From contig CBDETH010000008.1 of NCBI GenBank assembly GCA_965242885.1, positions 1,442,225-1,506,224 on the forward strand: a stretch of 64,000 nt of DNA. Reading direction: 5' to 3'. The position numbers were made by a program, and so were the translations under genes. This DNA is from a bacterium (GTDB lineage: Bacteria; JAAXHH01). The number at the start of each line of letters is the position of its first letter. The stretch's first letter is position 1. This document shows positions 24,808 through 54,639 of the stretch, one piece after another. Below the pieces are notes generated by a model. That model worked only from the letters and a program-made list of their open reading frames with translations, was not told where the DNA came from and searched no databases.

Positions 24808-24941
24808 AAAAAGGTCCTATTCTGCAGGGTGCAGGGACCAAAAATCATGGGCCGAAAAACCTCGTCCATGGTATGACGCGCAAGGTCGAGTGTCAAGGGA
24901 AACAGCCGCCTTCCCACGGGCCGGTCCGCGGCTCACATGGC

Positions 24942-25223: not shown

Positions 25224-27221
25224 ATGAGCGTACGCCAGCGGTCTTCCGCGCCGTCCGGAAAGCCGGATTCCCATCCTCCCGGTACGGGGCCTCCCGCCCG
25301 GCATGGCGGACTGGCGTCGGGCATGACGCTCCGGGCGGTGGGTCTCGGCCTGGGACTCTCCGTGTTCATGGCGTGGTGGGTGGTGCATTCCGCCTTCGAA
25401 GCTCATTCTTCCTACCTTTCCATTACCCACTTGCCCATGGCGGCGCTCTTCCCCTTCATGCTGGTCGTCTTCGTCATAAACGGCCTGTTGAAGCGTTTCG
25501 CGCCCACGCGGATCTTCACCGCGCCGGAACTGATCATCATCTTCTTCATCGTGTTCACGGCCTCGGCCGTCCCGGGATGGGCCTTTACCACCTACTGGGT
25601 CGCCATCCCATCCATCCCCCACTACTACGCCAATTCCGAGAACAGATACGTCGAGTTGTTCTTCGAGTACCTGCCGACCTGGCTGATCGTCCCCGACGAA
25701 CGGCGGGCCGTGCACTGGTTCTACGAGGGCCTGCCGTCTACGGGTATCATTCCCTGGCGGGACTGGATCATCCCCATGAGCTGGTGGGGTACCTTCTTCC
25801 TGGCCCTCTTCTTCGCCAGCGCATCGCTCATGGTGATCCTGCGCAAGCAATGGATCGAAAGGGAGCGGTTGACCTTCCCGCTGGCCCGCGTTCCCCTGCT
25901 GCTCGTCGAGGATGACGACAGCGGTTCCGTGCTGCCCCGGATCGCCCGGTCCAGGGTGTTCTGGTACGGTTTTTCTATCCCCCTCTTCGTCATCCTGTGG
26001 AATATCGTCTCGTACTGGGACTTCGTGCCGCCCATCAAACTGGGCGGCGATTACCGCATCCCGATCACCCTGGCCGAATCCTTCCCCCCGATACAGTTCA
26101 AGATCAGTTTCGCTTTCATCGGCATCGGCTTCTTCACGAACCTCAATATCCTGTTCAGCATCTGGGTATTCTTCCTGTTGGCCACAATCCAGATCGGCAT
26201 CATGAGCCGGTTCGGCATTCCGAAGACGACCGAGATCGTCACGGCGCAGCACCTGGGCGGTTTTTTCATGTACACGCTCTTCGGACTCTGGATGGCGAGA
26301 CGCCACCTATACGACGTGGTGCGAAAGGCCATCGGCCGGGGACAAGACATTGATGATTCGGGGGAGTTCTTCTCGTACCGGACCGCCATGGCGGGCGTGG
26401 TGTTCGGCATCGTCTACATGTTTTTCTTTCTGATCAGCATGGGCATGTCATTTGCCGCCGCGGCCACGCTGCTGGCCACCTGCATGCTGCTCTTTATCGG
26501 GGTCACCCGCGTAGTGGCGGAAGCCGGTCTGATCTACCTGGACCTGCCCTACAACGCCCACGAATTCACGGTTTTTTCCTTCGGGTCGGCGAACCTGCAC
26601 CGGGCCGACCTCACGATACTGACGCTGTCCCAGACCTTCTCGAGGAACTGGCGGACACTGGGCATGTGCGCCATGGCACACGTCAACAAGATGGGCGACG
26701 AGATCGGCGGGGCCCGGCGCGGGATTTTCCCGGTCATCGTCTCGGCCCTCCTCATGGCCGCGGTCATATCGGTCGTCTATACGGTGTTCCTGGGTTACGA
26801 TACCACCGGAGCGGACGGGTTCGAGGACGCCTTCGGCAATGCAAAGAGAGGCTACGAGACGCTGGCGACGTGGATCAACAACCAGACGCAGTTGACCGGC
26901 GGCGAGTACATGGGCCTGGGGGTCGGCGCGCTCACCGCCTGGCTGCTGATCCTGGCCCACCACAACTTCCACTGGTGGCCGCTGCATCCCATCGGCTGGG
27001 CGGTCGCCAAGACCTGGGCCATCGGGATGATCGCCACTTCGATTTTCATGGTCTGGCTCATCAAGGCCATAATCATGAAACTGGGCGGCACGAGACTCTA
27101 CCGCCAGTCGCAGCCCTTCTTCATCGGCATGCTGGTGGGGTACGTACTGGGTGTCGCACTTTCCTACGGCGTGGATGTGATCTGGTTTCCCGCCTCGGGG
27201 CATATCGTGGAGACGTGGTAA
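25224..27221 (+). CDS. Polytopic integral membrane protein, uncharacterised family, paralog A (665 aa, ~14 predicted TM)
   Basis: Many hydrophobic helices. Conserved blocks shared with paralogs B and C: ILRKQWIERERLTFP, VAEAGL, WWPLHPIG, GQPFFIG. Confidence 0.6.
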   Translation: MSVRQRSSAPSGKPDSHPPGTGPPARHGGLASGMTLRAVGLGLGLSVFMAWWVVHSAFEAHSSYLSITHLPMAALFPFMLVVFVINGLLKRFAPTRIFTAPELIIIFFIVFTASAVPGWAFTTYWVAIPSIPHYYANSENRYVELFFEYLPTWLIVPDERRAVHWFYEGLPSTGIIPWRDWIIPMSWWGTFFLALFFASASLMVILRKQWIERERLTFPLARVPLLLVEDDDSGSVLPRIARSRVFWYGFSIPLFVILWNIVSYWDFVPPIKLGGDYRIPITLAESFPPIQFKISFAFIGIGFFTNLNILFSIWVFFLLATIQIGIMSRFGIPKTTEIVTAQHLGGFFMYTLFGLWMARRHLYDVVRKAIGRGQDIDDSGEFFSYRTAMAGVVFGIVYMFFFLISMGMSFAAAATLLATCMLLFIGVTRVVAEAGLIYLDLPYNAHEFTVFSFGSANLHRADLTILTLSQTFSRNWRTLGMCAMAHVNKMGDEIGGARRGIFPVIVSALLMAAVISVVYTVFLGYDTTGADGFEDAFGNAKRGYETLATWINNQTQLTGGEYMGLGVGALTAWLLILAHHNFHWWPLHPIGWAVAKTWAIGMIATSIFMVWLIKAIIMKLGGTRLYRQSQPFFIGMLVGYVLGVALSYGVDVIWFPASGHIVETW

Positions 27222-34079: not shown

Positions 34080-36074
34080 ATGGCCTCAGTACAGCAAAGT
34101 GTTTCCGCCTCCGCTGTCCGTGCGACCGCGACCCGGATCATTACGCCGCGGTCCATTCTCCTGGGCCTGCTGAGCGTCGTCCTGATCTCCCTCATCGTCC
34201 CCTATTTCCAGTACACCATGGCCTCGTCCCAGCTGGGCGCGGATCATCTCCACATCGGCGCGCTGTTTCTGGCCTTCGGGTACCTGGTCGTTTTCAACGT
34301 GGTGCTGGCCAGGTGGAAGAAGGACTGGGCCCTCACGCCCCACGAGTTCGTCATACCCCTGGTCATGGGCATGGCGGCATCGGGGCTGACGACCAACGGC
34401 ATGGGCGCCCCGTTCATCTCCACGCTGATGGCACCCTACCTGCTGGCGACGCCCGAGAACCAGTGGGCCGAGTACTTCTACCCGTACCTGCAACCCTGGG
34501 CGACGGTCACGAACCAGGGCAACGCCCTCACGTGGCTGGTAGACGGTATACCGCCCGGCGTGTCCATTCCCTGGAGCGTGTGGGGCATTCCGCTGTTCTG
34601 GTGGCTGACTTTCATCGTCCCGGTCATCTTCATGGGCCTGTGTCTCGTGGTCATCCTCAGGCGGCAGTGGGTCGAACACGAGAAGCTTGTCTTTCCCATG
34701 ATGCAGATCCCCCTCGCCTTCACCCGCGGCATGGAGTCGCCGAGCCGCGTCCCGGCCTTTCTCTCGGAGAAGCGGTTCTGGATCGGCTTTTCCATCCCCT
34801 TCTGCGTGATGATGTACAACATTGTCGGGTTCTTCACCCCGGTCGTGCCCCAGTTCCCCTATTTCGGGTCGGCGCCGCCCATCGTATTCGGCGAGGGATT
34901 CCCCCCGCTGGAAATCAACTTCCGCCCGGCCATCCTGGGCATTTCCTATTTCGTCAATTTGGATGTCCTCGCCGGTTTCTGGGTGTTCTACATGATCGGG
35001 ATCATCCAGGTGGGCATCGCCCACCGGATCGGGTACGACATCCCGGGACGGGACAACTACACCTCGATCCATCCCATGCTGGACTGGCAGAACATGGGCG
35101 CGTTCATCCTGTTCGTGGGATGGGGGCTGTGGCGGGCGCGGTTTCACATCCGCGCCGTGTGCTCACAGGCCTTCGGCCGCCGGTCGGACCTGGATGACTC
35201 GGACGAGATGCTGCCCTACCGGGTCGCGGTTTTCGGGTTCATCGGAGGCTTCGTCTACGGGGTGGTCTGGCTGAACCAGCTGGGCATGGGCGTACCCATT
35301 GCCGTGTTCCTCCTCGCCGGGGTATTCATCATCTACATCGGCGTATCCCGCATCATCGCCGAGGCCGGGCTGCCCTACGTGCGTTCGCCCATGATCGCCC
35401 AGGTGCTCGTGTTCTATTCGGTCGGGTCGGCCAACCTTTCCATGTCCACCATGACGGCCATGGCCCAGACGTACGGACCCGTCAGCGAGATCAAGTCTAC
35501 CTTCATGCCCGCCTTCATGCAGGCGGCCAAGCTATCCGAGATCGGCACGCGCTGGCAGCGCGGCCTGGGTTGGTCGCTCCTGTCCGCCGCGGTGATCGGC
35601 GTGGTGATCTCGCTGGTCTGGACGATCTACCTGGGGTTCGACCTGGGCACGCGCCAGTTCACCAACGGCTGGTGGTTCGGCCGGATCGGATCGACCATCC
35701 CCTATAATGAAACGCTCACCAAGATGCGGGACCCCTTCGGGCCCGACACGTCGCGGCTCATGTTCTTCCTGGTGGGCGGTGCGCTCATGTTTCTGCTCAT
35801 GACGCTGCGGGCCCGGCTGCCGGGCTGGCCGCTGCATCCCCTCGGGTTCTTCCTTTCATACTCCTGGCCCGCCCGGGCGATCGTCTCGTCCATGTTCGTG
35901 TGCTGGGTCATCAAGAGCATCATGATGTGGGTCGGCGGCATCGAACTGTACCGGAAGGGGCAGCCCTTCTTCCTGGGCCTGATCTTCGGCGTGGTCACCG
36001 GCGTGGTCATCTCCATGTTCGTCGACTACGTGTGGTTTCCCCACGCAGGTCATCACATCTACGGGATAGACTAG
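34080..36074 (+). CDS. Polytopic integral membrane protein, uncharacterised family, paralog B (664 aa)
   Basis: Colinear with paralog A (ILRRQWVEHEKLVFP, IAEAGLPY, GWPLHPLG, GQPFFLG). Its stop TAG lies 1 nt before the GTG start of the downstream fusion gene. Confidence 0.6.
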   Translation: MASVQQSVSASAVRATATRIITPRSILLGLLSVVLISLIVPYFQYTMASSQLGADHLHIGALFLAFGYLVVFNVVLARWKKDWALTPHEFVIPLVMGMAASGLTTNGMGAPFISTLMAPYLLATPENQWAEYFYPYLQPWATVTNQGNALTWLVDGIPPGVSIPWSVWGIPLFWWLTFIVPVIFMGLCLVVILRRQWVEHEKLVFPMMQIPLAFTRGMESPSRVPAFLSEKRFWIGFSIPFCVMMYNIVGFFTPVVPQFPYFGSAPPIVFGEGFPPLEINFRPAILGISYFVNLDVLAGFWVFYMIGIIQVGIAHRIGYDIPGRDNYTSIHPMLDWQNMGAFILFVGWGLWRARFHIRAVCSQAFGRRSDLDDSDEMLPYRVAVFGFIGGFVYGVVWLNQLGMGVPIAVFLLAGVFIIYIGVSRIIAEAGLPYVRSPMIAQVLVFYSVGSANLSMSTMTAMAQTYGPVSEIKSTFMPAFMQAAKLSEIGTRWQRGLGWSLLSAAVIGVVISLVWTIYLGFDLGTRQFTNGWWFGRIGSTIPYNETLTKMRDPFGPDTSRLMFFLVGGALMFLLMTLRARLPGWPLHPLGFFLSYSWPARAIVSSMFVCWVIKSIMMWVGGIELYRKGQPFFLGLIFGVVTGVVISMFVDYVWFPHAGHHIYGID

Positions 36075-36075
36075 C

Positions 36076-39000
36076 GTGTATTCGCGGATATTCGGTTTTT
36101 TCTTCCTCGCCGTGGGCGTCCTGTTGTTCCTCGCCGTGGCCGTCGCCGGCCCGGCCTGGGTGACAGAGCACGTGATCCTCAGGATCGTCTCCATTCCGGA
36201 AGACGTGCCGCCCAGGCCCCTCGAGGAAGCGCCGGTGTCCTGGGAGGAAGTTTCCGAAATCGTTACGCGGGAGCGTGTGGAGGCTCATGTCCGGGCGATG
36301 AGCGAGAACCCGTCGCGCGTCGTCGGCTATCCGGGAAACCGGGCGGCCATGGAATACGTGGTCGATGCCTTCCGTGCCGGAGGCCTGGCAGAGGTCACGG
36401 TCGACACCTTCACGGTATCCTCGCCCGTCGACCATGGTTTCACGCTGACCGTGCACGACGCCGTGGAGACCGAGATACCGGTGTATCAGTTCTGGCCCAA
36501 CCTGGTCCGGCTGAATTCCTTTCCTGACGGGATCCGGGGACCCCTGCACTACGGCCAGCGGGGCGAATTCCAGGCCTTCAACGGGAAAGAGATCGAGGGC
36601 AGCATCGTCCTGGTCGATTTCGACGGGCGCGACCAGTACCTCAACGCGCGGATGCTCGGAGCCCGGGCCGTGCTGTTCCACGACAGCGGCCCCGGTTCCG
36701 TGACCAACAACCAGGCCCAGCGCAAGATCCTGGACGTGCCCGCCGACGTGCCGCGCTTCTGGGTCCCGGACCCCCACGCCGCCGCTGTCCTGGCGGCCGC
36801 GCGGTCCGGCGATGTCGAAGTGACGATCCGTGGACACATGACGTGGGAACGGGCCGAGACCTGGAACGTCATGGGGTGGATACCGGGCCGGGACGAACCG
36901 CTGCCGGGGAGCGACGGCACGGAGAAATGGAAAGACCGGATCGTCGTGCTGTCGGCGTTCTACGACGCCATGTCGGTCGTACCCGGTCTGGCGCCGGGCG
37001 CCGAGAGCGCGGGGGGTATCGCCGCCATGCTGGAGCTGATGGACGTGCTCCGGGCCCATCCGCCGGGATACACCGTGCTGTTCCTGGCCACGTCCGCCCA
37101 TTTCCACGGGCTGCAGGGCGTAAACGACTTCCTGGACCGGCACCAGCGAAAGGACGAGTTCTTCCTGGAACGGATCCCCGAAGAGGACCGGATCCCCTTC
37201 GACCTGTTCCTGGGCCTGGACCTCACCAGCAGGGCGGACCAGGTCGGCCTGTTCAGCTACGGCGATTTCATCTTCTTCACCTCGAATCTGGATATCCTGT
37301 ACGAACCCTATGCGGACCGGTACCTGAATTACGCGCGCAAGGCCGGGGTCCACGATGATGAGGATAGCCGGACGGCCTATCTCAACACGCTGACGCACCC
37401 GCTCCGGTCGCAGGAAAGCTTCATGCCCGCCGGTCCCGCCTTCGACCACGAGATGGTCACGCTCGCCGGGCTCCACGGCATGACCTTCGCCACGGTAAAC
37501 GACAACAGACTCCTCATCGACACCCCGAAGGACCGGATCGAGTACGTCGATTTCCCCAACCTGGTCCGGCAGATCCGAACGCTGGGCACGCTGCTGCCGG
37601 CCATGCTGTCCGATCCCGTGGCCTTCGACGTGGACGAGTCGATTCGGCTCAAGGACGAGGGCCGCGACATTGAAGGCCGGGTCCTCGAATTCGACCGAAC
37701 GGTGGATTTCTTCAAGCCCAATACCCCGGTCTCCGACGCCCTGGTCGTCTACGAGCCCGGATACCAGAGCCACAGCGGCGTTCGTGGGTTCATGGTTACC
37801 CACGCCGACTCGCTGGGGCATTTCCGGCACTCCATGGTCCGGTTCCCCCGGGGACCGACGGAACTGCGCAGTTACGGCCTCGCCGCCGACGGCCGGATCG
37901 TGTACGCCCCCGACCTCGGTGAAGAAGGCAACGCCACCTTTCCCCTCGCGGTGCCGAACTCATCCAAGGTGAACAATACCATACAGGTCCTCTTCCCCTG
38001 CGAGGAGATCAACCTCTTCGATATCGTGGACCCCGGCGTCTTCGTCGCCCTCGACAACCTGACCGTACTCGGCCGGGACAACAGCCCGCTGCGCAAGTAC
38101 GGCGCGGCCTTCGTGGAAGACCAGAGTTTCTTCGGCAACTGGATGACCAACGCCGCGGTGGTCTTCGCCCGGCCCGAGGACCGGGTCAAGATGTTCATGA
38201 GCTCGGGTCCCCGGGGTGTCAAGTACCTGCTGACCAACACGCCCGAATCGTGGCTCGACGAACCGCCGGTAAGCATCTCGGACGACGCCATGGCCCTGGC
38301 CCAGGGACGGGGATTCACGGCGGACCAGGGCCTGATCCTCTACCCCTTCTACCAGAGCGCCCTGGACCTGTGGTCGCTCAACCGGGCCCGCCTGATGAAA
38401 CTGGAGGATCACGGCGTGACCAACGCCCGGGCCGCCGAGCTGCACGAGGAGAGCACCGAAGCGCTTCGGGCCGCCCGGGAGGCCCTGGAGAACCGCCGAT
38501 ACGACGCCTTCGCCGCGCGGTCGAGAGAGGCGTGGGGCTTCGAGGCGCGGGCTTATCCCGACGTGCGGTACGCCGCGGACGATACGGTGGACGGCATCGT
38601 GTTCTACTTCATGCTGCTGGTCCCCTTCTGTTTCTTCCTCGAACGGCTTTTCTTCGGTTTCACGGACATTCGGAAGCGGCTGGCCTCGGTGGGCGTCATC
38701 TTCGCGGCGGTCTTCATGCTGCTGCAGAACGTGCACCCCGCCTTCCAACTCAGCCTGACGCCGTACATGGTCTTTCTCGCCTTCCTCATCCTGGCCATGG
38801 CGCTGATCATCATCACCATGATCGTCACCCGGTTCGACACCGAGATGAAGAACCTGACCCGGTCTGCGGCCGGCCTCCACGAGGCGGACATCGGCCGGCT
38901 GAGCGCCACGGCCGTGGCCATTTCCCTGGGGATATCGAACCTGCGCAAGCGGAAGATGCGCACGGCGCTGACCGCGGTCACGCTGACCCTGCTGACCTTC

Positions 39001-40644
39001 ACCGTCTTGTCCTTCACTTCCTTCCGGACCGGCATCCAGTTCTATACGCTGGACCGCGAAAACACCCCGCCGTACGACGGCGTCCTCATGCGCAGCCTGT
39101 CGTGGCACTCCCTGCCCACGTCCTTCCTGCCCTACGTGGAGAACGCCTTCGAAGACCAGGCGGACGTGGTACCCCGGTCCTGGTACGAGCCGGAGGACAT
39201 GGTCAGCCCCTATATCGACCTGCGTGTGCGGGGCAAGGGGACCGCCACCACGGTACAATCCATCCTGGGACTGCACGCCGACGAACCGGCCGTCACCGCG
39301 CTGGACCGCTACCTGGTGCCGGGCGGACGGTGGTTCGCCCCGGACGAAAGGGCGGCCTGCCTGCTGCCCACGGAACTGGCCGAGCGGCTGGACGTGGGGC
39401 CGGAGGACGTGGGTACGGCGGAGGTGGAGATCCTCGGTGGACGCTATACGGTGATCGGACTGCTCGATTCCGAGGGGTTCGACGCCTACCGGGACATGGA
39501 CGACGAGAGCATCATGCCCGCCAGCTTCTCCATGACACGCTCGCTTACCGATATGGACATCGAAGTGTTCATGTCCACCATCCAGGCCTCCGAACACCTG
39601 CCGTCCCGCAACGTGCTGGTCCTGCCCTACCGGCAGACGCTCGACCTGAACGGGTCCACGCGGTCCGTGGCCATCGCGGGGTTCTCAGGCGGCGAAGAGC
39701 TCCGCGATTCCGTTGAGGCCTTCATGTCGCGGGTCCTCCTGGCCGTGTTCGTCGGCATGGAAGACGAAGTGAGGGTCTACAGCTCCCTGGGCGCTACTTC
39801 GGTCTCGGGCCTGGCCAACCTGATCATCCCGGTGCTCATCGCGGCGTTCCTGGTGTTGAATACCATGATGGGCGCCGTGTTCGAACGGTTCCGGGAAATC
39901 GGCGTGTACAGCGCGGTCGGGCTGGCCCCGAACCACGTCGCCGCCCTGTTCATCGCCGAAGCCGCCGTATTCGCGACGCTCGGGGCCGTCTTCGGTTACC
40001 TGTCCGGCCAGATCATCACCATGGGGCTCTCGCAATGGGACCTGCTGGGTGGCATGTCGCTCAACTATTCCTCCCTTTCGACCGTTTACGCCACGTTGGT
40101 CGTCATGGCCATCGTCTTCCTGTCCACCCTCTACCCGGCGAAGAAGGCCGCGGACATGACGGTAGAGGACGTGACGCGGCGCTGGTCGCCCCCGCCGCCC
40201 GACGAAGACGACTGGTGCTTCGAGTTCCCGTTCACGGTGACCGTACCCGAAGCGTTGCCGCTGTCGGGCTACCTGAACCACATCTTCCAGACCCATGAAG
40301 ACAGTTCGGCAGAGGACTTCGTCGCCGAGGGGACCACGCTCGACGCGATACCGGGGGATACCTACGACACGTATCACGTGGCATCCACCGTCTGGCTGGC
40401 GCCGTACGACCTCGCCATCAGCCAGGACGTGCGGCTTGAACTGGAGCCCGTGCTTCACGAAAGACTGTACCGCATCCTGATCGTGATCCACCGCCGCAGC
40501 GGTGACCTGGCGCAATGGCAGACGATCAACCGGCGGTTCTTCACCGTATTGAGGAAGCGGTTTCTGGTATGGCGGACCCTGGCAGAGCCCATAAAGGCGC
40601 GGTACCGGGATATCAAAGCCTTCGATCGCCACACGGCCCTGTAA
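36076..40644 (+). CDS. Fusion protein: N-terminal TM + M28-peptidase-like/PA ectodomain + two FtsX-like permease modules (1522 aa)
   Basis: PA domain (GSIVLVDFDGRDQYLNARMLGARAVLFHD). M28-like core (VVLSAFYDAMSVVPGLAPGAESAGGIAAMLELMDVL...LATSAHFHG). FtsX/MacB-type TM1 (LRKRKMRTALTAVTLTLLTFTVLSF). C-terminal FtsX domain (GAVFERFREIGVYSAVGLAPNHVAALFIAEAAVFATLGAVFGYLSG). Confidence 0.7.
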   Translation: MYSRIFGFFFLAVGVLLFLAVAVAGPAWVTEHVILRIVSIPEDVPPRPLEEAPVSWEEVSEIVTRERVEAHVRAMSENPSRVVGYPGNRAAMEYVVDAFRAGGLAEVTVDTFTVSSPVDHGFTLTVHDAVETEIPVYQFWPNLVRLNSFPDGIRGPLHYGQRGEFQAFNGKEIEGSIVLVDFDGRDQYLNARMLGARAVLFHDSGPGSVTNNQAQRKILDVPADVPRFWVPDPHAAAVLAAARSGDVEVTIRGHMTWERAETWNVMGWIPGRDEPLPGSDGTEKWKDRIVVLSAFYDAMSVVPGLAPGAESAGGIAAMLELMDVLRAHPPGYTVLFLATSAHFHGLQGVNDFLDRHQRKDEFFLERIPEEDRIPFDLFLGLDLTSRADQVGLFSYGDFIFFTSNLDILYEPYADRYLNYARKAGVHDDEDSRTAYLNTLTHPLRSQESFMPAGPAFDHEMVTLAGLHGMTFATVNDNRLLIDTPKDRIEYVDFPNLVRQIRTLGTLLPAMLSDPVAFDVDESIRLKDEGRDIEGRVLEFDRTVDFFKPNTPVSDALVVYEPGYQSHSGVRGFMVTHADSLGHFRHSMVRFPRGPTELRSYGLAADGRIVYAPDLGEEGNATFPLAVPNSSKVNNTIQVLFPCEEINLFDIVDPGVFVALDNLTVLGRDNSPLRKYGAAFVEDQSFFGNWMTNAAVVFARPEDRVKMFMSSGPRGVKYLLTNTPESWLDEPPVSISDDAMALAQGRGFTADQGLILYPFYQSALDLWSLNRARLMKLEDHGVTNARAAELHEESTEALRAAREALENRRYDAFAARSREAWGFEARAYPDVRYAADDTVDGIVFYFMLLVPFCFFLERLFFGFTDIRKRLASVGVIFAAVFMLLQNVHPAFQLSLTPYMVFLAFLILAMALIIITMIVTRFDTEMKNLTRSAAGLHEADIGRLSATAVAISLGISNLRKRKMRTALTAVTLTLLTFTVLSFTSFRTGIQFYTLDRENTPPYDGVLMRSLSWHSLPTSFLPYVENAFEDQADVVPRSWYEPEDMVSPYIDLRVRGKGTATTVQSILGLHADEPAVTALDRYLVPGGRWFAPDERAACLLPTELAERLDVGPEDVGTAEVEILGGRYTVIGLLDSEGFDAYRDMDDESIMPASFSMTRSLTDMDIEVFMSTIQASEHLPSRNVLVLPYRQTLDLNGSTRSVAIAGFSGGEELRDSVEAFMSRVLLAVFVGMEDEVRVYSSLGATSVSGLANLIIPVLIAAFLVLNTMMGAVFERFREIGVYSAVGLAPNHVAALFIAEAAVFATLGAVFGYLSGQIITMGLSQWDLLGGMSLNYSSLSTVYATLVVMAIVFLSTLYPAKKAADMTVEDVTRRWSPPPPDEDDWCFEFPFTVTVPEALPLSGYLNHIFQTHEDSSAEDFVAEGTTLDAIPGDTYDTYHVASTVWLAPYDLAISQDVRLELEPVLHERLYRILIVIHRRSGDLAQWQTINRRFFTVLRKRFLVWRTLAEPIKARYRDIKAFDRHTAL

Positions 40645-40727
40645 CCTGCGGAGAGGCAACGCGATGCGCGGTGCGATCCGGAATGAGGAAAAGCGATGTG
40701 CGGCGCGAACATGAGAGAGGAGCGGCC

Positions 40728-41885
40728 ATGTACGACCTGATCATCAAGGGCGGCCATGTCATCGATCCCGATAACGGCATCAACGGAAGCCGGGACGTCG
40801 CCGTCGACGGCGGCCTGATCGCGGCGGTGGAACACGACATCCCGGCGGAACACGGTCGAAGGGTCGCCCGCGTCCACGGCCATTACGTCACGCCCGGGCT
40901 GATCGACATCCACATGCACGCTTACGGCGGCTACCGGGGGTGGGTTTTCCCCGACGCCCACGTGCTTCCCAACGGCGTGACCACGGTGCTCGATACCGGG
41001 GGCGCGGGCTGGAAGAAGTTCGAAGACTTCAAGGACACGGTCATCGCGGATTCCACAACCCGGGTCCTGGCGCTGATCAACATCGTGGGCGCCGGCATGG
41101 AAGGCGCCGTGGAGCAGGACGTTTCGGAGATGGACCCGGTACCCTGCGGGGACATGATCGCCCGGTACCCGGAGCACGTCGTCGGGTCCAAGACCGCCCA
41201 TTTCGGCGGTCCGGGCTGGGAGGCGGTGGACGGCGCCGTCGAAGCGGCCCGTCGAAGCGGCACCATCGCCATGATCGATTTCGCGCCGAAGCCGACCCGG
41301 AGCTACCGGGACCTGCTGCTGAAGAAACTGAGCCCCGGCGACATCCATACGCATCTCTACGCGCAGCACATACCCCTGCTGGACGAGCACGGCCGGGTGA
41401 ACGACTACGTCCGGGAAGCGCGGGACAAGGGCATCCTGTTCGACCTGGGCCACGGCGGCGGCAGCTTCTGGTTTCGCATCGCCGTGCCGGCCATCGAGCA
41501 GGGGTTCCTGCCGGATACCATCAGTACGGACCTCCACAAGTACAGCGCCCTGATGCCGAACGCGAGCATGAACACGACCATGTCGAAATGCCTGAACATG
41601 GGGATGACGCTGGAGGACGTGGTCATGCGCTCCACGCGGAACCCCGCCCGGGCCATCCGGCGCCCCGAACTGGGCACGCTGAGCATCGGCGCGGAGGCGG
41701 ACGTCGCCGTGCTGGAGCTGGAATACGGAGAGTTCGGTTTCGTGGACTCGGGCCACGCGCGCATGCGCGGCGACCGGCGTCTGAGGTGCCTGTTGACGGT
41801 GCGTGCCGGCGAGGTGGTCTGGGACCTGAACGGCCTGACGCGGCCGGACTGGGACAAGGCGGGAAAATACATCAGGGCGGATTAG
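40728..41885 (+). CDS. Amidohydrolase-superfamily metallohydrolase (dihydroorotase / D-aminoacylase-like)
   Basis: N-terminus YDLIIKGGHVIDPDNG ... GLIDIHMHAY (HxH metal site). SD gagaggag lies upstream of ATG 40728. Confidence 0.75.
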   Translation: MYDLIIKGGHVIDPDNGINGSRDVAVDGGLIAAVEHDIPAEHGRRVARVHGHYVTPGLIDIHMHAYGGYRGWVFPDAHVLPNGVTTVLDTGGAGWKKFEDFKDTVIADSTTRVLALINIVGAGMEGAVEQDVSEMDPVPCGDMIARYPEHVVGSKTAHFGGPGWEAVDGAVEAARRSGTIAMIDFAPKPTRSYRDLLLKKLSPGDIHTHLYAQHIPLLDEHGRVNDYVREARDKGILFDLGHGGGSFWFRIAVPAIEQGFLPDTISTDLHKYSALMPNASMNTTMSKCLNMGMTLEDVVMRSTRNPARAIRRPELGTLSIGAEADVAVLELEYGEFGFVDSGHARMRGDRRLRCLLTVRAGEVVWDLNGLTRPDWDKAGKYIRAD

Positions 41886-41970
41886 CCGGACGGACCGGGT
41901 TGAGTACGGGCGCGGCTGAAAACCGGTACGCGCCGCACCCATTCGGAAATGCCATGACCGAGCGTAAACC

Positions 41971-44022
41971 ATGAGCGACACCACCAGGCGTGAACACCAG
42001 GATCGGCACGACCGGGAAGCCGATTCCGCCGGACAGGACGACCGGTGGCAGATCGTGCCGGACAGCCTGCCCTACGAGGACGGGTTCAGCAGCCGGATCA
42101 TCTGGGCCGCCTTCTTCGTCGGGCTGGTCATGCTTCCGGGGGCGATCTACCTGGAACTGGTGACCGGAAAGAGTTTCGCGGGCGCCGCGGAATGGGTCAC
42201 CATCATCATGTTCATCGAGATCGGGAAGCGCCTGTTCATCAAGCTGAAGCCCCAGGAAGCCATCATCCTCTACTGGCTCGCTGCCGGCCTGGCGGCGACG
42301 GGACTGGGCGCCAGCGGCATGGCGGCCGGGTCATCGGTGCACGGCGCGCCTTTCGCCAAGATGATCTGGTTCCAGTATCTGATCCAGTCCCCCCAGGCGG
42401 ACGGCCTGGCCCAGCTTCTGCCCCAGTGGGTATCGCCGCCCAGAGGTTCCGATTCCCTGATCACCCGGACCCTCTTCTCCATGGAGTGGCTGGAACCCAT
42501 CCTGCTGGCCGTCCTCGTGTCCATCCTCGGCCTGGTCAACGCCCTTTCGCTGGGATACGTGCTCTTCCGCATCACGGCGGACACCGAACGCCTGCCCTTT
42601 CCCCTGGCGCCCGTACAGGCGGCCGGCGCCACCGCGCTGGCGGAATCGTCCGCGGGCGAAGAGACCTGGCGGTGGCGCCTGTTTACCGTCGGCGCCATGA
42701 TCGGCCTGGGTTGGGGTATTCTGTACGTCGTCGTTCCGACGGTATCGGGCGTGGTGCTGACCAAGGGGGTCGAAGTCTTCCCCATTCCCTTCGCGGACTT
42801 TACGCCGCGGGTCCGGGACGTGCTGCCCGCGTCGCCCATCGGCATCGGCACGGACATGGCCACGCTCCTGGTGGGTTTCGTTCTGCCCTTCTGGATCGTG
42901 GTCGGTACTTTCATCAGTTCTTTCGTCGTCACCTTCATCGCCAACCCGGCCCTCTACCACTTCGGCCTTTTGCACAGCTGGGCGCCGGGGATGAGCACCA
43001 TCCCCACTTCCATCAACAACACCATCGATTTCTGGCTGAGTTTTTCCTCCATCGGCACTTCGCTGGTCATCGGCCTGATCGGCCTGGTCGCCTTCGCCCG
43101 CGCCCTGCGACGAGACCCGGACGGCCCGTCGGGCGCCCAGGGACCCCGCCGGCCGCCGCCGGACCGGGGCGATTTCAGGCTGCCTATCCCCATCGCGCTC
43201 TGGGCGGTCTCGACCCTTTGCTTCATTCTCCTGGTCTACTACCTCGAACCCACGTTTCCGGTATGGATCTCCCTGGTATTCGGGTTCCTGTGGACGCCCT
43301 TCTTCTCCTACATCGGCGCGCGCATGATCGGTCTCACGGGCTCGCCCTACGGATCGTCCTTCCCCTACGCGAGGGAGGGCTCCTTCTACCTGTCGGGCTA
43401 CAAGGGCGTGGCCATCTGGTTCGCGCCGGTTCCGCTCTTCGATCACAGCGGCGTGGTCGCGACCTTCCGGCAGCTGGAACTCACCCGAACGCGATTTCCA
43501 AGCCTGGTCAAACTCTATATATTGAGCCTGTTGCTGCTCATCGTATTCAGTTTCCTGTTCTACGCCCTGATCTGGAAACTGGCGCCCATACCGTCCGCGG
43601 CCTATCCCTTCGTCGAGAAGATGTGGCCGCTGCAGGCGACGATGGAGACGATCTGGATCAAGTCGACCCTGCCGGGCGGATCGGATGTGATCGGGCAGCT
43701 CATCAAGTGGGAGTACATCGGCGCCGGGATGGGGTTCACGGTGGCCCTGTACGGGGTCCTGAGCCTGCTCAAAGCGCCGCCGCTGCTGTTCTACGGCCTG
43801 GTCGCGGGACTGGGCACCGGCGCTTGGATTCATTACACGTTGCCCACGTTCATCGGAGCGATGCTGGGCCGGTTCTATTTCGGGCGGCGCTATGGCGAGA
43901 AGAGATGGCGGGCCTACGCGCCCGTGATCCTCGCCGGGTACGGGTGCGGCCTGGGCCTGATCGGCATGGCGGCCGTCTCCCTGGTGCTGATCGCCAAGTC
44001 CACGTCCCAGATCCTGTTCTGA
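41971..44022 (+). CDS. Polytopic integral membrane protein, uncharacterised family, divergent paralog C (683 aa)
   Basis: Same overall layout as A and B. Weaker shared blocks (FRITADTERLPFP; C-terminal ...RWRAYAPVILAGYGCGLGLIG). Confidence 0.55.
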   Translation: MSDTTRREHQDRHDREADSAGQDDRWQIVPDSLPYEDGFSSRIIWAAFFVGLVMLPGAIYLELVTGKSFAGAAEWVTIIMFIEIGKRLFIKLKPQEAIILYWLAAGLAATGLGASGMAAGSSVHGAPFAKMIWFQYLIQSPQADGLAQLLPQWVSPPRGSDSLITRTLFSMEWLEPILLAVLVSILGLVNALSLGYVLFRITADTERLPFPLAPVQAAGATALAESSAGEETWRWRLFTVGAMIGLGWGILYVVVPTVSGVVLTKGVEVFPIPFADFTPRVRDVLPASPIGIGTDMATLLVGFVLPFWIVVGTFISSFVVTFIANPALYHFGLLHSWAPGMSTIPTSINNTIDFWLSFSSIGTSLVIGLIGLVAFARALRRDPDGPSGAQGPRRPPPDRGDFRLPIPIALWAVSTLCFILLVYYLEPTFPVWISLVFGFLWTPFFSYIGARMIGLTGSPYGSSFPYAREGSFYLSGYKGVAIWFAPVPLFDHSGVVATFRQLELTRTRFPSLVKLYILSLLLLIVFSFLFYALIWKLAPIPSAAYPFVEKMWPLQATMETIWIKSTLPGGSDVIGQLIKWEYIGAGMGFTVALYGVLSLLKAPPLLFYGLVAGLGTGAWIHYTLPTFIGAMLGRFYFGRRYGEKRWRAYAPVILAGYGCGLGLIGMAAVSLVLIAKSTSQILF

Positions 44023-44070
44023 CGTCCCGGATCCTGTGCTGACACGCGAATTGACCTGGAAACCTGTTCC

Positions 44071-45105
44071 ATGCCCAATGATTTCCGCGTAGCCCTGGTC
44101 GCCGATCTGCTGGGTCCCGACGGCGGGGTCGTCTTCGACGATTTCGGCGTCGACCTGCTGGACGATGCAGGGGTCTTCCATGCCTTCCTGGAAGAGGACC
44201 GGTCGCCCGTCACCCCGGATCAGCTGGAGGACTTCGACGCGGTGATCTCCATGGGCCAATCTTACACGCGAGACTCCTTTGCCCGAGTCGAGCGCCTGGC
44301 GCTGATCGCCCGTACGGGCGTGGGCTACGACATGATCGATATGGACGCCGCGACGGAGGCGGACGTCATGGTGACGATCACGCCGGAGGCCACGCGCAGG
44401 CCCGTGGCCAGCGCCACCATGGCCCTGATGCTCGGTCTCTGCCACCGGGTGACGATCAAGGACGCCATCGTCCGGAACGACGACTGGGACATCCGGTTCG
44501 ATCACATGGGATGCGAGATCCGGGGACGGGTGGTCGGCCTCATCGGCATGGGCATGATCGGCCGCGAGGTGGCCCGCATGCTGGCGCCCTTCGAGCCTTC
44601 CGAAATCCTCGTCGCCGATCCGGCGGTGACCGCGGAAGAGGCCGCGCGACTGGGCGTTACGCTGGTGGATTTGGAGACGCTGCTCCGGCGCAGCACGTTC
44701 GTTACCATCCACTGCCCGTTGAATGAGCACACCCGGTACCTGATCGGTGCGCGTGAGCTGCGCATGATGCGGGAGGGCGCCTACCTCGTTAACACGGCGC
44801 GTGGCGCCATCGTAGACCAGAAAGCACTGGAGCAGGCGTTGCAGGAAGGCTGGATCGCAGGCGCGGCCATTGATGTTTTCGAGCAGGAACCGCCAGCCGC
44901 CGACGATCCCCTGCTTTCCCTGCCGAACGTCATCCTGGCACCTCACGCTTCGTGCTGGACCTACGAGCTGTTCCGTGATATCGGACACGACTGCATGAAG
45001 GCGGCCCTGGCCGTTTCCAGGGGAGAAGAGCCTCCTTACGTGGTCAACCGGGAAGTACTCGAGCGGCCCGGATTAAGGAGAAAACTGGAACGATTCAGCG
45101 GATAA
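44071..45105 (+). CDS. D-isomer-specific 2-hydroxyacid dehydrogenase family protein (PGDH-like)
   Basis: NAD site GRVVGLIGMGMIGREVARML; catalytic-domain signature ...LVNTARGAIVD...; 344 aa. Confidence 0.8.
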   Translation: MPNDFRVALVADLLGPDGGVVFDDFGVDLLDDAGVFHAFLEEDRSPVTPDQLEDFDAVISMGQSYTRDSFARVERLALIARTGVGYDMIDMDAATEADVMVTITPEATRRPVASATMALMLGLCHRVTIKDAIVRNDDWDIRFDHMGCEIRGRVVGLIGMGMIGREVARMLAPFEPSEILVADPAVTAEEAARLGVTLVDLETLLRRSTFVTIHCPLNEHTRYLIGARELRMMREGAYLVNTARGAIVDQKALEQALQEGWIAGAAIDVFEQEPPAADDPLLSLPNVILAPHASCWTYELFRDIGHDCMKAALAVSRGEEPPYVVNREVLERPGLRRKLERFSG

Positions 45106-45123
45106 CACCAGGAAAGGAAGAAA

Positions 45124-46182
45124 ATGCCAGTAATTTCCCCCGAGAAACTGCATCGAATCGGCTGTGAAGTGATGGAGGCGGCCGGCTGCACGGCGGACGA
45201 CGCGCGCAGCGTCGTGGACCACCTCGTGGATTCCAATCTCTTCGGTCATGATTCCCACGGCGCTATCCGGATCCCGGAATACGTCAAGGCCATCAAGGAC
45301 GAGGGCCGGTTCAAGGCCAGGGCGGACGTGCGAATCCTGATGGAGAGTCCTTGTACGGCCGTGGTGGACAACGGAGGCGCGCTCGGCCAGGTGGGCGGAA
45401 CCGTCGCCATGCAACTGGCCATGAAGAAGGCGAGAGCGCACGGCACGGCCACGGTTTCGCTAAGGCGTACCAGCCACGTGGGGCGCGTGGGCGCTTATCC
45501 GCTCATGGCGGCCCGGGAGGGCCTGATCGGACTGGCCTTCGTCAACGCGGGCCGGTTCGGACGCCAGATCCCGCCCTTCGGCGGTATCGACGGACGCATC
45601 AGCACCAATCCCATTGCTTTCTCGGCCCCCCGCAGGAACGACGACCCCGTCATGGTGGACCTGACCACTTCCGTCGTCGCGGAAGGCAAGGTGCGTGTCG
45701 CCGCGAACAAGGGCGTGCGGGTTCCCGAGGGCTGGTTGATCGACCACGAAGGAAATCCCACCACGGACCCGACCGTGATCAAGGGCCCGCCGCCCAACGG
45801 CGCCATCCTGCCCATGGGTGGCATCGTCGCCCACAAGGGCTACAGCCTGGGGCTGCTCGTAGAGATCCTGGGCGGCACGCTGAGCGGACAGGGATGCGCG
45901 CAGGGCGAGCAGACCGTATCGAGCAACGGGGTGCTCTTCACCGTTTACGATATCTCTTTCTTTACCGATCTGGACTGGTACTACGAGGAAGTCGAAGGAA
46001 TGATCCGCCACGTGAAAGCCAGCCGTACAGCACCGGGATTCGACGAGATCCTCATACCGGGCGAACCGGAGTTCCGACTGGCGGCGAAGCGACGTCAGGA
46101 AGGGATCAGCATCGACGACACCACCTGGCAGCAGATGAAAGAGGCCGGGACCCGAGTCGGTCTGAATCCGGAGCAATGGTAA
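45124..46182 (+). CDS. Ldh_2-family (malate/L-lactate/sulfolactate/ureidoglycolate dehydrogenase type 2) oxidoreductase
   Basis: GHDSHGAIR and GGALGQVGGTVAM...HVGRVGAY are colinear with E. coli AllD/YbiC-type proteins (GIHSHGAVR ... NAAGQVAAKMGM). Confidence 0.65.
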   Translation: MPVISPEKLHRIGCEVMEAAGCTADDARSVVDHLVDSNLFGHDSHGAIRIPEYVKAIKDEGRFKARADVRILMESPCTAVVDNGGALGQVGGTVAMQLAMKKARAHGTATVSLRRTSHVGRVGAYPLMAAREGLIGLAFVNAGRFGRQIPPFGGIDGRISTNPIAFSAPRRNDDPVMVDLTTSVVAEGKVRVAANKGVRVPEGWLIDHEGNPTTDPTVIKGPPPNGAILPMGGIVAHKGYSLGLLVEILGGTLSGQGCAQGEQTVSSNGVLFTVYDISFFTDLDWYYEEVEGMIRHVKASRTAPGFDEILIPGEPEFRLAAKRRQEGISIDDTTWQQMKEAGTRVGLNPEQW

Positions 46183-46199
46183 GCCCGCGGTAAACCGAA

Positions 46200-46233
46200 A
46201 AAGGGACAGGAGCATAACTACCCCTGTCCCTTT
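46200..46233. terminator. Bidirectional rho-independent terminator hairpin (11-bp perfect stem aaagggacagg/cctgtcccttt, 12-nt loop)
   Basis: Lies between the convergent genes ending at 46182 (+) and 46264 (-). Flanked by an A-run on the left (a U-tract for the minus-strand transcript) and ttt on the right. Confidence 0.6.
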
Positions 46234-47817: not shown

Positions 47818-47825
47818 GCCGCCTA

Positions 47826-49475
<1,650 letters not shown>

Positions 49476-49497
49476 ATATCGGAAGCGATGGTCGGAT

Positions 49498-51117: not shown

Positions 51118-51193
51118 TTCCTTCATCCCCACGGGTCAAACGCGTCCCGGAAGGGCCGTAAAACCCGGTTCACCGAATGCCACCTGTTTATAG

Positions 51194-53721: not shown

Positions 53722-53760
53722 ATAAAGAAAGATGGGCGAACGAAACGAAAGGAGCCCCTG

Positions 53761-54615: not shown

Positions 54616-54639
54616 GGGATTGCGAGCGACAACCCGCAC

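What the first reader, a model, noticed from the sequence alone, without database searches (positions are those of the whole stretch)
34080..46233. Candidate uncharacterised envelope system: membrane-protein paralog B coupled to a giant M28/PA-double-FtsX fusion, with no ABC ATPase, in a six-gene operon
Six same-strand genes with gaps of 1, 83, 85, 48 and 18 bp run from 34080 to 46182 and stop at a perfect bidirectional hairpin at 46200-46233. They are: membrane protein B, the M28/PA-FtsX fusion, an amidohydrolase, membrane protein C, a 2-hydroxyacid dehydrogenase and an Ldh_2 dehydrogenase. FtsX-type permeases normally need a cytoplasmic ABC ATPase partner (FtsE/MacB/LolD-like), and none is encoded within about 10 kb. 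Instead the permease is translationally coupled (1-nt spacer, GTG start) to a 14-TM protein of unknown family. This combination of an unknown polytopic protein, a peptidase-like ectodomain on a double FtsX scaffold, and amidohydrolase plus dehydrogenases does not match any characterised transport or processing system I recognise. It could be a peptide or acyl-amino-acid uptake/processing or envelope-remodelling module.
Basis: partly seen in the sequence, partly recalled or inferred. Interest (0 to 1): 0.8.

Follow-up and report, generated by a model that had tools for sequence, protein, structure and literature searches.

The report
OPT-type importers with ATPase-less FtsX partner
The two "unknown" membrane proteins are distant relatives of proton-driven oligopeptide/Yellow-Stripe importers, and across several uncultured phyla they are locked (sometimes physically fused) to a giant MacB/FtsX-type membrane protein that carries a dead-looking peptidase domain and has no ATPase gene nearby, a pairing I could not find described.

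Summary
Six same-strand genes run from 34080 to 46182 with gaps of 1, 83, 85, 48 and 18 nt. A 34-nt hairpin follows, and the 64-kb window encodes no ABC ATPase.

The 1522-aa fusion has these parts:
- an M28/PA domain whose canonical zinc and catalytic residues are replaced;
- a conserved non-ATPase cytoplasmic tail.

A second FtsX unit is not detectable by sequence.

In 60 of 63 related loci the fusion lies within 3 kb of a B- or C-type gene, in at least seven gene orders. None has an adjacent ATPase. A Latescibacterota lineage fuses the two into one 2120-aa protein.

The conserved core is therefore the fusion plus OPT-fold transporter(s). The amidohydrolase and dehydrogenases are clade-specific cargo.

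Best reading: a proton-driven uptake module with a membrane-anchored periplasmic capture subunit. The function itself is untested.

The parts
34080..36074 (+). Membrane protein B: DUF6785 + DUF6784, an OPT/Yellow-Stripe-fold secondary transporter
36076..40644 (+). Fusion protein (1522 aa, GTG start 1 nt after the B stop), member of a conserved ~1500-aa family
   Evidence: Pfam PA, M28, MacB_PCD and FtsX. 559 homologues, many full length. At least 574 loci in GTDB species genomes.
36076..36165 (+). Fusion residues 1-30: N-terminal transmembrane helix (TM1)
   Evidence: Hydrophobic segment IFGFFFLAVGVLLFLAVAVAGPAWV read from the translation; the topology is inferred.
36253..37575 (+). Fusion residues ~60-500: periplasmic PA + M28-like domain with a degenerate metal site (probable pseudopeptidase)
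   Evidence: Profile alignment to the aminopeptidases 2ek8 and YwaD; nicalin is also among the hits. Ligand-column statistics in 120 homologues: His97-equivalent is Y/F in 95; catalytic Glu151-equivalent is His in 120/120; Glu152-equivalent is Phe in 106; His256-equivalent is Ser/Ala in 87.
37576..38580 (+). Fusion residues 501-835: conserved periplasmic region of unknown fold; site of 200-300 aa insertions in Planctomycetota variants
   Evidence: No Pfam hit even at E<=10. Insertions map to about residue 578.
38587..38835 (+). Fusion residues 838-920: three transmembrane helices (TM2-4). With TM1 they give an FtsX-like 1+3 topology, but homology to FtsX is not detectable.
   Evidence: hhalign against the C-terminal FtsX unit gives probability 0.3%. 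No FtsX Pfam hit at E<=10 in 6 homologues. Helical in the AF2 model.
38962..39795 (+). Fusion residues 963-1240: TM5 plus a MacB-type periplasmic core domain
39811..40158 (+). Fusion residues 1246-1361: FtsX domain (TM6-8) with the conserved ERxREIG loop
40159..40641 (+). Fusion residues 1362-1522: family-specific cytoplasmic alpha+beta domain (DxWxFEFPFT motif); no P-loop
   Evidence: No Pfam hit. 1188 representative proteins carry it, almost always at the extreme C-terminus of 1450-1900-aa proteins. Predicted as beta-alpha-beta4-alpha. In the natural fusions it is joined by about 35 residues to the N-terminus of a DUF6785 protein.
40728..41885 (+). COG3964-type amidohydrolase/deacetylase (clade-specific passenger)
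   Evidence: NCBIfam NF006689, 371.2 bits against a cut-off of 371. PDB relatives 8je0 amidase, 2ogj and 2ics. Present next to the fusion only in loci L003-L013.
41971..44022 (+). Membrane protein C: a sister family of DUF6785 without a Pfam model; inferred OPT fold
   Evidence: No Pfam or NCBIfam hit. hhalign of the B family against the C family gives probability 95.9%, E 5.4e-9. NCBI names many members 'peptide transporter', and one cluster carries PF03169 OPT.
44071..45105 (+). D-isomer-specific 2-hydroxyacid dehydrogenase (clade-specific passenger)
   Evidence: Pfam 2-Hacid_dh_C 194 bits. Below every NCBIfam equivalog cut-off.
45124..46182 (+). Ldh_2 family dehydrogenase (malate/L-lactate/ureidoglycolate/sulfolactate type)
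   Evidence: Pfam Ldh_2 354 bits. Ldh_2 genes recur near the module in Latescibacterota and next to a stand-alone DUF6785 gene in L086.
46200..46233 (.). Hairpin flanked by A and T tracts between convergent genes; probable bidirectional terminator
   Evidence: Sequence read; 15-pair stem found by the terminator scan.
25224..27221 (+). Paralogue A: stand-alone DUF6785 + DUF6784 transporter, 34% identical to B, not next to a fusion gene
   Evidence: Pfam; BLASTP E 1e-113. Neighbours are an epimerase (minus strand) and a rhodanese.

Best explanation
The conserved unit is one giant fusion protein plus one or two OPT/Yellow-Stripe-fold secondary transporters (B-type DUF6785/6784 and/or C-type), working as one inner-membrane complex for nutrient uptake.

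Proposed mechanism:
- B and C move a small organic substrate into the cell by proton symport, using the elevator-type mechanism proposed for the only solved relative, HvYS1. The substrate is probably peptide-like or an acylated or modified amino-acid derivative.
- The fusion protein supplies no ATP energy. Its eight TM helices, four of them a true MacB/FtsX bundle, act as a membrane anchor or scaffold docked to the transporter.
- Its two large periplasmic modules capture or present the substrate. These are a PA/M28-like domain that has lost the canonical di-zinc catalytic set, and a MacB-type periplasmic core domain.
- This would resemble a membrane-tethered version of the binding proteins of TRAP/TTT secondary transporters.
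- The family-specific cytoplasmic C-terminal domain contacts the transporter's cytoplasmic N-terminus.
- In the window's clade, the imported compound is then processed by the co-transcribed COG3964 amidohydrolase and the two dehydrogenases.

Shown: the folds, the degenerate M28 site, the conserved linkage, the natural gene fusion and the absence of linked ATPase genes. Inferred: complex formation, direction of transport, proton coupling, the capture role and the substrate class.
For: - HvYS1 is a proton-driven symporter with a proposed elevator mechanism (PMC9691689).
- C is homologous to B. NCBI annotates C-family members as peptide transporters.
- Linkage: 60 of 63 fusion genes with at least 3 kb of flank have a B and/or C gene within 3 kb. 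All 13 fusion clades (60% identity) have such a neighbour, in at least 7 different arrangements. Adjacent pairs often have gaps of a few nt or overlap, and the gap is 1 nt in the window.
- Rosetta stone: P0475 (2120 aa) is the fusion family joined to a full-length DUF6785 protein. It has several independent full-length copies in ENA, JGI and NCBI and is one uninterrupted ORF in L087. A second fused cluster is P0445/P0523.
- No ATPase: only 13 of 82 loci have any ABC ATPase within 10 kb. All are at least 3.5 kb away and sit beside their own permeases.
- The canonical M28 catalytic Glu and most zinc ligands are replaced family-wide.
- Import/catabolism context: stand-alone DUF6785 genes sit inside catabolic operons, namely sulfatase-TIM barrel-SDR-DUF6785 and Ldh_2-DUF6785-cupin with 2-Hacid_dh nearby.
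Against: - No experiment or complex model supports the capture/scaffold role.
- The FtsX cytoplasmic loop (ERxREIG), which docks the ATPase in MacB-type systems, is invariant in the family. That could mean an ATPase encoded elsewhere still binds.
- Invariant D297, H342, D382 and E459 and near-invariant E310 at the former metal site could form a non-canonical active site.
- The AF2 model of the C-terminal half has a low pTM of 0.46, so domain packing is unknown.
- The substrate class is a guess: neighbouring genes differ widely between clades.
- B and C fail the Pfam OPT model, so proton symport is extrapolated from fold alone.
Confidence: 0.45

Rival explanations
1. The fusion is a genuine Type VII ABC (mechanotransmission) permease whose ATPase is encoded elsewhere in the genome. 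ATP-driven movements of its periplasmic domains extract or process a substrate, which B and C then import.
For: The MacB/FtsX fold is unambiguous. The coupling-loop motif ERxREIG is invariant. Shared or remote ATPases are known for other ABC systems (own knowledge). The rest of these genomes could not be searched.
Against: None of 82 loci from 13 clades and several phyla has an adjacent ATPase, whereas B/C linkage is near-universal. The fusion carries its own conserved cytoplasmic domain directly after the last TM helix. In the natural fusions that cytoplasmic domain is joined by about 35 residues to the transporter's N-terminus. Both leave less room for an ATPase dimer under the FtsX bundle (inference).
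Confidence: 0.2
2. This is a proton-powered mechanotransmission machine. The OPT-fold protein replaces the ATPase as the motor, and its elevator movements, driven by the proton gradient, are passed to the FtsX bundle and on to the periplasmic domains.
For: Obligate linkage and covalent fusion of the two proteins. No ATPase. Strong conservation of the FtsX TM and loop residues, beyond what a passive anchor would seem to need.
Against: There is no precedent. DUF6785 proteins also occur alone inside catabolic operons, where they look like plain importers. There is no structural model of the interface.
Confidence: 0.12
3. The ectodomain is an active hydrolase with a non-canonical site. It trims periplasmic peptides or conjugates so that the products can enter through B and C.
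For: The M28 fold is retained. Residues at the old metal site are strongly conserved: D297, H342 and D382 are invariant or nearly so, and E310 and E459 are conserved in 116 and 119 of 120. 25 of 120 members keep the first His.
Against: The general-base Glu is His in 120 of 120, the adjacent zinc-ligand Glu is Phe in 106 of 120, and the first and last His ligands are missing in most members. The pattern resembles the inactive M28 relatives nicalin and transferrin receptor (nicalin hit; their inactivity is from own knowledge).
Confidence: 0.1
4. This is an envelope-remodelling or peptidoglycan-related device, analogous to FtsEX controlling wall hydrolases, with B and C recycling the released peptides.
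For: FtsX-fold proteins regulate wall hydrolases in known systems (papers). One giant variant (P0383) carries a LysM domain in its ectodomain.
Against: No wall hydrolase, division gene or EnvC-like gene recurs next to the module. Several paralogous copies occur per genome. Neighbours are mostly catabolic or secreted glycan-binding proteins.
Confidence: 0.08

Closest known systems
OPT / Yellow-Stripe-like transporters (TC 2.A.67; Pfam PF03169; solved example barley HvYS1, PDB 7wsr/7wst)
   Different: Identity is only 13-15%. Neither B nor C matches PF03169. No PDB sequence hit appears even with profiles. Known OPT/YSL proteins work alone or as homodimers (PMC9691689), not with an FtsX-type partner.
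Type VII ABC transporters (MacB, LolCDE, FtsEX, HrtBA, YtrEF, BceAB, YbbAP-TesA)
   Same: Residues 963-1361 of the fusion are a MacB_PCD + FtsX unit by sequence and fold. A large extra periplasmic module is attached to the permease, as with YbbAP, which works with the hydrolase TesA (PMC12646458).
   Different: No ATPase is fused or linked. Only one FtsX unit is recognisable. The partner is a secondary transporter. A unique cytoplasmic C-terminal domain follows the last helix.
ADOP, acidobacterial duplicated orphan permeases (TIGR03434)
   Same: These are FtsX-type permeases in large single polypeptides that lack an adjacent ATPase gene (family definition from own knowledge; weak hit).
   Different: The score is 21 bits against a cut-off of 622. 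ADOP has two MacB_PCD+FtsX repeats, no M28/PA domain and no reported OPT-fold partner.
Inactive M28-fold ectodomains on membrane proteins (nicalin, transferrin receptor; active relative GCPII)
   Same: An M28 fold with a PA insertion, tethered to the membrane, with catalytic residues lost. Nicalin is among the PDB profile hits.
   Different: Those are eukaryotic single-pass proteins. Here the domain forms the first periplasmic loop of an 8-TM bacterial protein.
TRAP / TTT transporters (secondary transporters that depend on a periplasmic binding protein)
   Same: This is a functional analogy only: a proton- or ion-driven elevator-type permease combined with an extracytoplasmic substrate-capture component and an extra scaffold membrane subunit (own knowledge).
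   Different: There is no sequence or fold relationship. Here the putative capture component is membrane-integral and MacB-like, and the role is inferred rather than shown.

Membership tests
DUF6785/DUF6784 (Pfam PF20581/PF20580) | Scores above the Pfam gathering cut-offs for both models | tested here: met
   B scores 368.1 and 81 bits; A scores 380.3 and 79.3 bits; the cut-offs are 25 and 26.4. C has no hit, so C is not a member by this test.
OPT / YSL transporter family | Sequence match to Pfam PF03169 (OPT) above the gathering score | tested here: not met
   No PF03169 hit for A, B or C. None in 13 C-family members at E<=10. Only one distant C-family cluster has a precomputed PF03169 hit.
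OPT / YSL transporter family | Same three-dimensional fold as a solved member (HvYS1) | tested here: met
OPT / YSL transporter family | Proton-coupled substrate symport; conserved proton-binding acidic residues in the core domain | not tested
   No structure-based residue mapping to HvYS1 Asp446/490/494 was possible with these tools. Transport itself needs an experiment.
Type VII ABC transporter (MacB/FtsX superfamily) | FtsX domain and MacB-type periplasmic core domain | tested here: met
Type VII ABC transporter (MacB/FtsX superfamily) | A cognate ABC ATPase, fused or encoded with the permease | tested here: not met
   None in the 64-kb window. In 82 related loci only 13 have any ABC ATPase within 10 kb, none is adjacent, and each sits beside its own permease. 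A remote ATPase elsewhere in the genome was not testable.
Type VII ABC transporter (MacB/FtsX superfamily) | Two FtsX four-helix units per complex (homodimer, heterodimer or internal duplication) | tested here: inconclusive
   The topology is 1+3 / 1+3 helices. However, the N-terminal unit shows no similarity to FtsX: hhalign probability 0.3% and no Pfam hit at E<=10 in 6 homologues.
M28 metallopeptidases | Pfam PF04389 match | tested here: met
   37.9 bits against a cut-off of 21.3, residues 284-498. Profile hit to the aminopeptidase 2ek8, E 9.6e-18.
M28 metallopeptidases | Co-catalytic zinc ligands (His, Asp, Glu, Asp, His) and the general-base Glu | tested here: not met
   Alignment to 2ek8 and YwaD plus 120-sequence column counts. 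His97-equivalent: Y48/F47/H25. Asp117-equivalent: Glu in 116. Glu151-equivalent: His in 120. Glu152-equivalent: Phe in 106. Asp179-equivalent: Asp in 119. His256-equivalent: S71/H23/A16. In the window protein these are F295, E310, H342, F343, D382 and H458.
ADOP duplicated orphan permease (TIGR03434) | Score above the NCBIfam cut-off; two MacB_PCD+FtsX repeats | tested here: not met
   21.1 bits against a cut-off of 622.3, covering the last FtsX unit only.
COG3964 amidohydrolase/deacetylase (NF006689) | Score at or above the curated equivalog cut-off | tested here: met
   371.2 bits against a cut-off of 371, over the full length; this is borderline. PDB relatives are 8je0, 2ogj and 2ics.

The most novel reading that the evidence does not exclude
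This would be a previously unrecognised class of inner-membrane machine. A MacB/FtsX-fold 'mechanotransmission' protein has dispensed with its ABC ATPase and is mechanically or energetically coupled to a proton-driven OPT-fold elevator transporter. The two are sometimes in one polypeptide. The proton gradient, not ATP, would then drive or gate the periplasmic PA/M28-like and MacB-type domains.
Probability: 0.25. Interest if true: 0.85.

Novelty: new variant of a known kind. Interest (0 to 1): 0.68.

Why it matters
- It gives the DUF6785/DUF6784 proteins, and a sister family with no Pfam model, a fold and a likely activity: OPT-type proton symport.
- It defines a large, conserved and unstudied protein family: 1188 representative clusters and at least 574 loci in species-representative genomes of Gemmatimonadota, Latescibacterota, Zixibacteria, Handelsmanbacteria and Planctomycetota.
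- It shows that an FtsX/MacB-fold protein can be tied to a secondary transporter instead of an ABC ATPase. All well-studied members of this fold are ATP-driven, so the pairing raises a testable question about how, or whether, this fold works without ATP.
- It may describe an important nutrient-uptake route in abundant uncultured marine bacteria. Several MAG names suggest sponge-associated lineages.

Tried and rejected
- Second FtsX unit: hhalign of fusion residues 835-960 against 1225-1370, and of TM1 against TM5, gave nothing. Pfam at E<=10 on six homologous segments gave no FtsX hit. 'Double FtsX' is therefore left as topology only.
- Sequence-profile searches of the PDB with the B and C family alignments found nothing useful. 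The OPT link needed a structure prediction.
- Pfam OPT hits for the C family: none in 13 members.
- ABC ATPases near the module: those found are 8 kb away beside BPD_transp_1 permeases (L001 type), or form their own small FtsX+ATPase pair (L029, L040). I rejected them as partners.
- Searching for further conserved neighbours (all-vs-all clustering) gave only clade-specific genes. Several have no Pfam or PDB match: clusters c9, c16 and c17.
- The giant 1815-1995-aa variants in the first 120 homologues are not fusions to B or C, only ectodomain insertions. Real fusions appeared only in the search with the C-terminal domain.
- Literature searches for DUF6785/DUF6784, orphan FtsX permeases, and OPT+FtsX found no description of this system.
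- The AFDB Foldseek library was unavailable.

Full report
**1. The observation**

All six ORFs are present on the plus strand at the stated coordinates:

| Gene | Coordinates | Length |
|---|---|---|
| B | 34080-36074 | 664 aa |
| Fusion | 36076-40644 | 1522 aa, GTG start |
| Amidohydrolase | 40728-41885 | 385 aa |
| C | 41971-44022 | 683 aa |
| 2-hydroxyacid dehydrogenase | 44071-45105 | 344 aa |
| Ldh_2 dehydrogenase | 45124-46182 | 352 aa |

- The gaps are 1, 83, 85, 48 and 18 nt. The B stop and the fusion start read TAG-c-GTG.
- The hairpin at 46200-46233 is a 15-pair stem flanked by A and T runs. It lies between convergent genes.
A and B are 34% identical.
- A Walker A/signature motif scan of all six frames and Pfam scans of the remaining ORFs find no ABC ATPase anywhere in the 64 kb.
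- The window is 98% identical to contig VXTP01000016.1 of the MAG "Gemmatimonadetes bacterium SB0665_bin_8".

**2. What the membrane proteins are**

- No paper in the library mentions DUF6785 or DUF6784. Profile searches of PDB sequences gave nothing.
- An AlphaFold2 model of B, built on 74 homologues, is confident: pLDDT 90.7, pTM 0.91.
- Foldseek agrees: E 1e-9, probability 1.00, TM 0.65/0.71, and nothing else below E 0.01.
- HvYS1 belongs to the oligopeptide transporter (OPT) family. It is a proton-driven symporter with a proposed elevator mechanism (PMC9691689).
- C has no Pfam or NCBIfam hit and only a marginal BLASTP match to B.
- Profile-profile comparison of 119 B-type against 120 C-type sequences gives 95.9% probability, E 5.4e-9. 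The shared motifs include ERLxFP.
- NCBI labels many C-family proteins "peptide transporter", and one cluster carries a PF03169 (OPT) hit.
- Conclusion: A, B and C are divergent OPT-fold secondary transporters. They fail the Pfam OPT sequence test, so I call them OPT-fold relatives, not OPT family members.

**3. What the fusion is**

The architecture is conserved full-length in hundreds of proteins from Gemmatimonadota, Latescibacterota, Zixibacteria and Planctomycetota. The parts are:

- **TM1.**
- **PA + M28-like domain.** Alignment to the active aminopeptidases 2ek8 and YwaD, and counts over 120 homologues, show the canonical M28 site is gone:
  - the general-base Glu is His in 120/120;
  - the neighbouring zinc-ligand Glu is Phe in 106;
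  - the first His ligand is Tyr or Phe in 95;
  - the last His is Ser or Ala in 87;
  - the bridging Asp is Glu in 116.

  The pseudo-enzyme nicalin is among the PDB hits. I therefore read this as a binding domain. The conserved D297/E310/H342/D382/E459 set keeps a non-canonical activity possible.
- **A 335-residue periplasmic region** with no match.
- **Three TM helices.**
- **A MacB_PCD + FtsX unit.**
- **A 160-residue cytoplasmic domain.**

The N-terminal 1+3 helices mimic FtsX topology but show no detectable homology. "Double FtsX" is therefore unproven.

**4. Linkage**

- A scan of species-representative genomes found at least 574 loci; 80 were fetched with 10-kb flanks.
- Among fusion genes with at least 3 kb on both sides, 60 of 63 have a B- and/or C-type gene within 3 kb: 23 with B only, 23 with both, and 14 with C only. 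Of the other three, two have one within about 5 kb (L001, L082) and one has none (L020).
- The 13 fusion clades (60% identity) each keep their own arrangement: b>F>, F>c>, F>b>c>, c>b>F>, b>F>b>, b<F>, and b>F>am>c>had>ldh2>. Shuffled order with retained proximity is the classic sign of a functional partnership.
- A tandem b-F-b-F array occurs in an 8-Mb genome.
- Only 13 of 82 loci contain any ABC ATPase. All are at least 3.5 kb away and beside their own permeases.
- The strongest evidence came from the C-terminal-domain search. P0475 (2120 aa) is the fusion family (residues 25-1448) joined to a complete DUF6785 protein (1483-2109, E 5e-85).
- Its 90% cluster has 56 members. These include four 2120-aa copies and a 2083-aa NCBI protein from different sources. 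In L087 it is one uninterrupted ORF. A second fused cluster is P0445/P0523.
- This Rosetta-stone fusion argues that the two proteins act together. It also places the fusion's C-terminal domain and the transporter's N-terminus on the same (cytoplasmic) side.

**5. What is core and what is cargo**

- The amidohydrolase and the 2-hydroxyacid dehydrogenase follow the fusion only in the window's own clade, L003-L013 at 66-98% identity. An Ldh_2 gene also follows there, and Ldh_2 genes recur on the opposite strand near the module in about eight Latescibacterota loci. The amidohydrolase matches NF006689 at 371.2 bits against a cut-off of 371 and has PDB relatives 8je0, 2ogj and 2ics.
- Other clades carry different neighbours: FGE-sulfatase, xylose-isomerase-like TIM barrels, PhyH, metallophosphoesterase, or secreted lectin-like proteins with type IX secretion tails.
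- DUF6785 genes also occur without the fusion, embedded in catabolic operons. Examples are sulfatase-TIM barrel-SDR-DUF6785 and Ldh_2-DUF6785-cupin with a nearby 2-Hacid_dh.
- That pattern is typical of substrate importers and supports uptake rather than export or wall remodelling.

**6. Mechanism**

- Best-supported model (confidence about 0.45): B and C are proton-coupled importers. The fusion is an ATPase-independent partner that anchors beside them and uses its PA/M28-like and MacB-type periplasmic domains to capture or present substrate. This would be functionally analogous to binding-protein-dependent secondary transporters.
- Shown: the folds, the degenerate active site, the linkage, the gene fusion and the absence of linked ATPases.
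- Inferred: physical docking geometry, proton coupling, direction, the capture role and the substrate class.
- Rivals:
  - a remote ATPase still powers the FtsX unit (0.2; the invariant ERxREIG loop, keeps this alive);
  - the OPT-fold protein is the motor for a proton-driven mechanotransmission device (0.12);
  - the ectodomain is a non-canonical hydrolase (0.1);
  - a peptidoglycan-related role (0.08; one variant carries LysM).

**7. Comparison and novelty**

- The closest known systems are OPT/YSL transporters (fold of B and C), Type VII ABC permeases (fold of the fusion's C-terminal half) and ADOP orphan permeases. ADOP is a precedent for FtsX proteins without an ATPase, but the fusion scores only 21 bits against a cut-off of 622.
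- Inactive M28 ectodomains such as nicalin are the closest match to the peptidase-like domain.
- I know of no characterised system that combines an OPT-fold transporter with a MacB/FtsX-fold protein, and five literature searches found none.
- I rate it a new variant of a known kind: a secondary importer with an unprecedented accessory subunit. There is about a 25% chance that it is a truly new energy-coupling arrangement.

**8. Limits**

- The remainder of the genomes could not be searched for orphan ATPases.
- All members are from uncultured organisms, so nothing here is experimentally tested.

Noticed in passing
window 27853-31507 (- strand): A complete bacillithiol biosynthesis set in a row: GT4 glycosyltransferase (BshA-like, 27853-28974), PIG-L deacetylase (BshB-like, 28971-29702) and BshC (29699-31507). 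This suggests the Gemmatimonadota MAG uses bacillithiol.
   Followed up: no
window 31330-33876 (- strand): An 848-aa MMPL/RND-type membrane protein is transcribed divergently from B across the 34-kb intergenic region, which holds a good minus-strand promoter match at 33913-33885. The same gene sits upstream in the orthologous loci L003-L013 (cluster 30).
   Followed up: partly
window 47143-55578: Just downstream of the operon lie an RraA-like aldolase, a full histidine-utilisation set (urocanase, histidine ammonia-lyase, imidazolonepropionase, a further amidohydrolase), a creatininase and a PhyH dioxygenase. PhyH and creatininase genes also recur near fusion or DUF6785 genes in unrelated loci (L001, L002, L083, L087).
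   Followed up: partly
window 19316-22966 (- strand): Three consecutive paralogous 'toastrack' DUF4097 proteins of 431, 289 and 452 aa.
   Followed up: no
window 7921-9768 (+): An aldehyde:ferredoxin oxidoreductase (AFOR_N + AFOR_C, very strong hits). This is a tungsten/molybdopterin enzyme more typical of anaerobes (own knowledge).
   Followed up: no
L087 6001-12363; proteins P0475, P0513, P0517, P0519, P0520, P0445, P0523: Natural single-gene fusions of the FtsX-type protein with a full DUF6785 transporter in Latescibacterota. In these the M28 Pfam hit is lost, and the gene is surrounded by FG-GAP/UnbV_ASPIC proteins, a sulfatase and PhyH.
   Followed up: yes
proteins P0362, P0365, P0367 (2769-3053 aa) and P0383 (2451 aa): These are giant variants of the fusion family. 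P0362 and P0365 have about 1100-1270 extra N-terminal residues containing Big_5 Ig-like domains. P0383 has LysM and NMB0315-domain-I modules in the ectodomain. Planctomycetota variants carry a 200-300-aa insertion near residue 578.
   Followed up: partly
L060-L080 (e.g. L069 1388-7987, L071 7690-9018, L067 9015-9806): In one Latescibacterota clade the module is preceded, on the same strand, by further conserved genes. These are up to three paralogous secreted proteins with F5/8-type-C, FlgD-Ig and type IX secretion C-terminal domains, then three conserved proteins of 871, 442 and 263 aa with no Pfam or PDB match. They may be further components of a larger system.
   Followed up: partly
L085 3848-17512: The gene order ExbB-ExbD-ExbD-(256 aa)-rotamase lies immediately upstream of C - FGE-sulfatase - fusion - a 628-aa protein with no Pfam hit. 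The proximity of a proton-driven ExbBD motor may be chance but is worth checking in more loci.
   Followed up: no
L086 6895-12274: A stand-alone DUF6785 gene is flanked by Ldh_2 and cupin genes with a 2-Hacid_dh nearby. These are the same two dehydrogenase families as in the window operon, which suggests a shared substrate class independent of the fusion.
   Followed up: partly
window 2154-6597 and 57622-58305: There are four separate class I SAM-methyltransferase genes (2154-2945, 3016-3861, 5491-6597 and 57622-58305). A rhodanese-domain gene (3985-4680) and a second 2-Hacid_dh gene (935-1909) lie nearby, and a further rhodanese gene sits next to paralogue A (27355-27792).
   Followed up: no
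window 42331-44988 (-), 36007-37830 (-), 22981-24876 (+): Very long antisense or alternative-frame ORFs of 600-885 aa have high first-position and low third-position GC. They are shadow ORFs typical of 62% GC DNA, not genes.
   Followed up: yes
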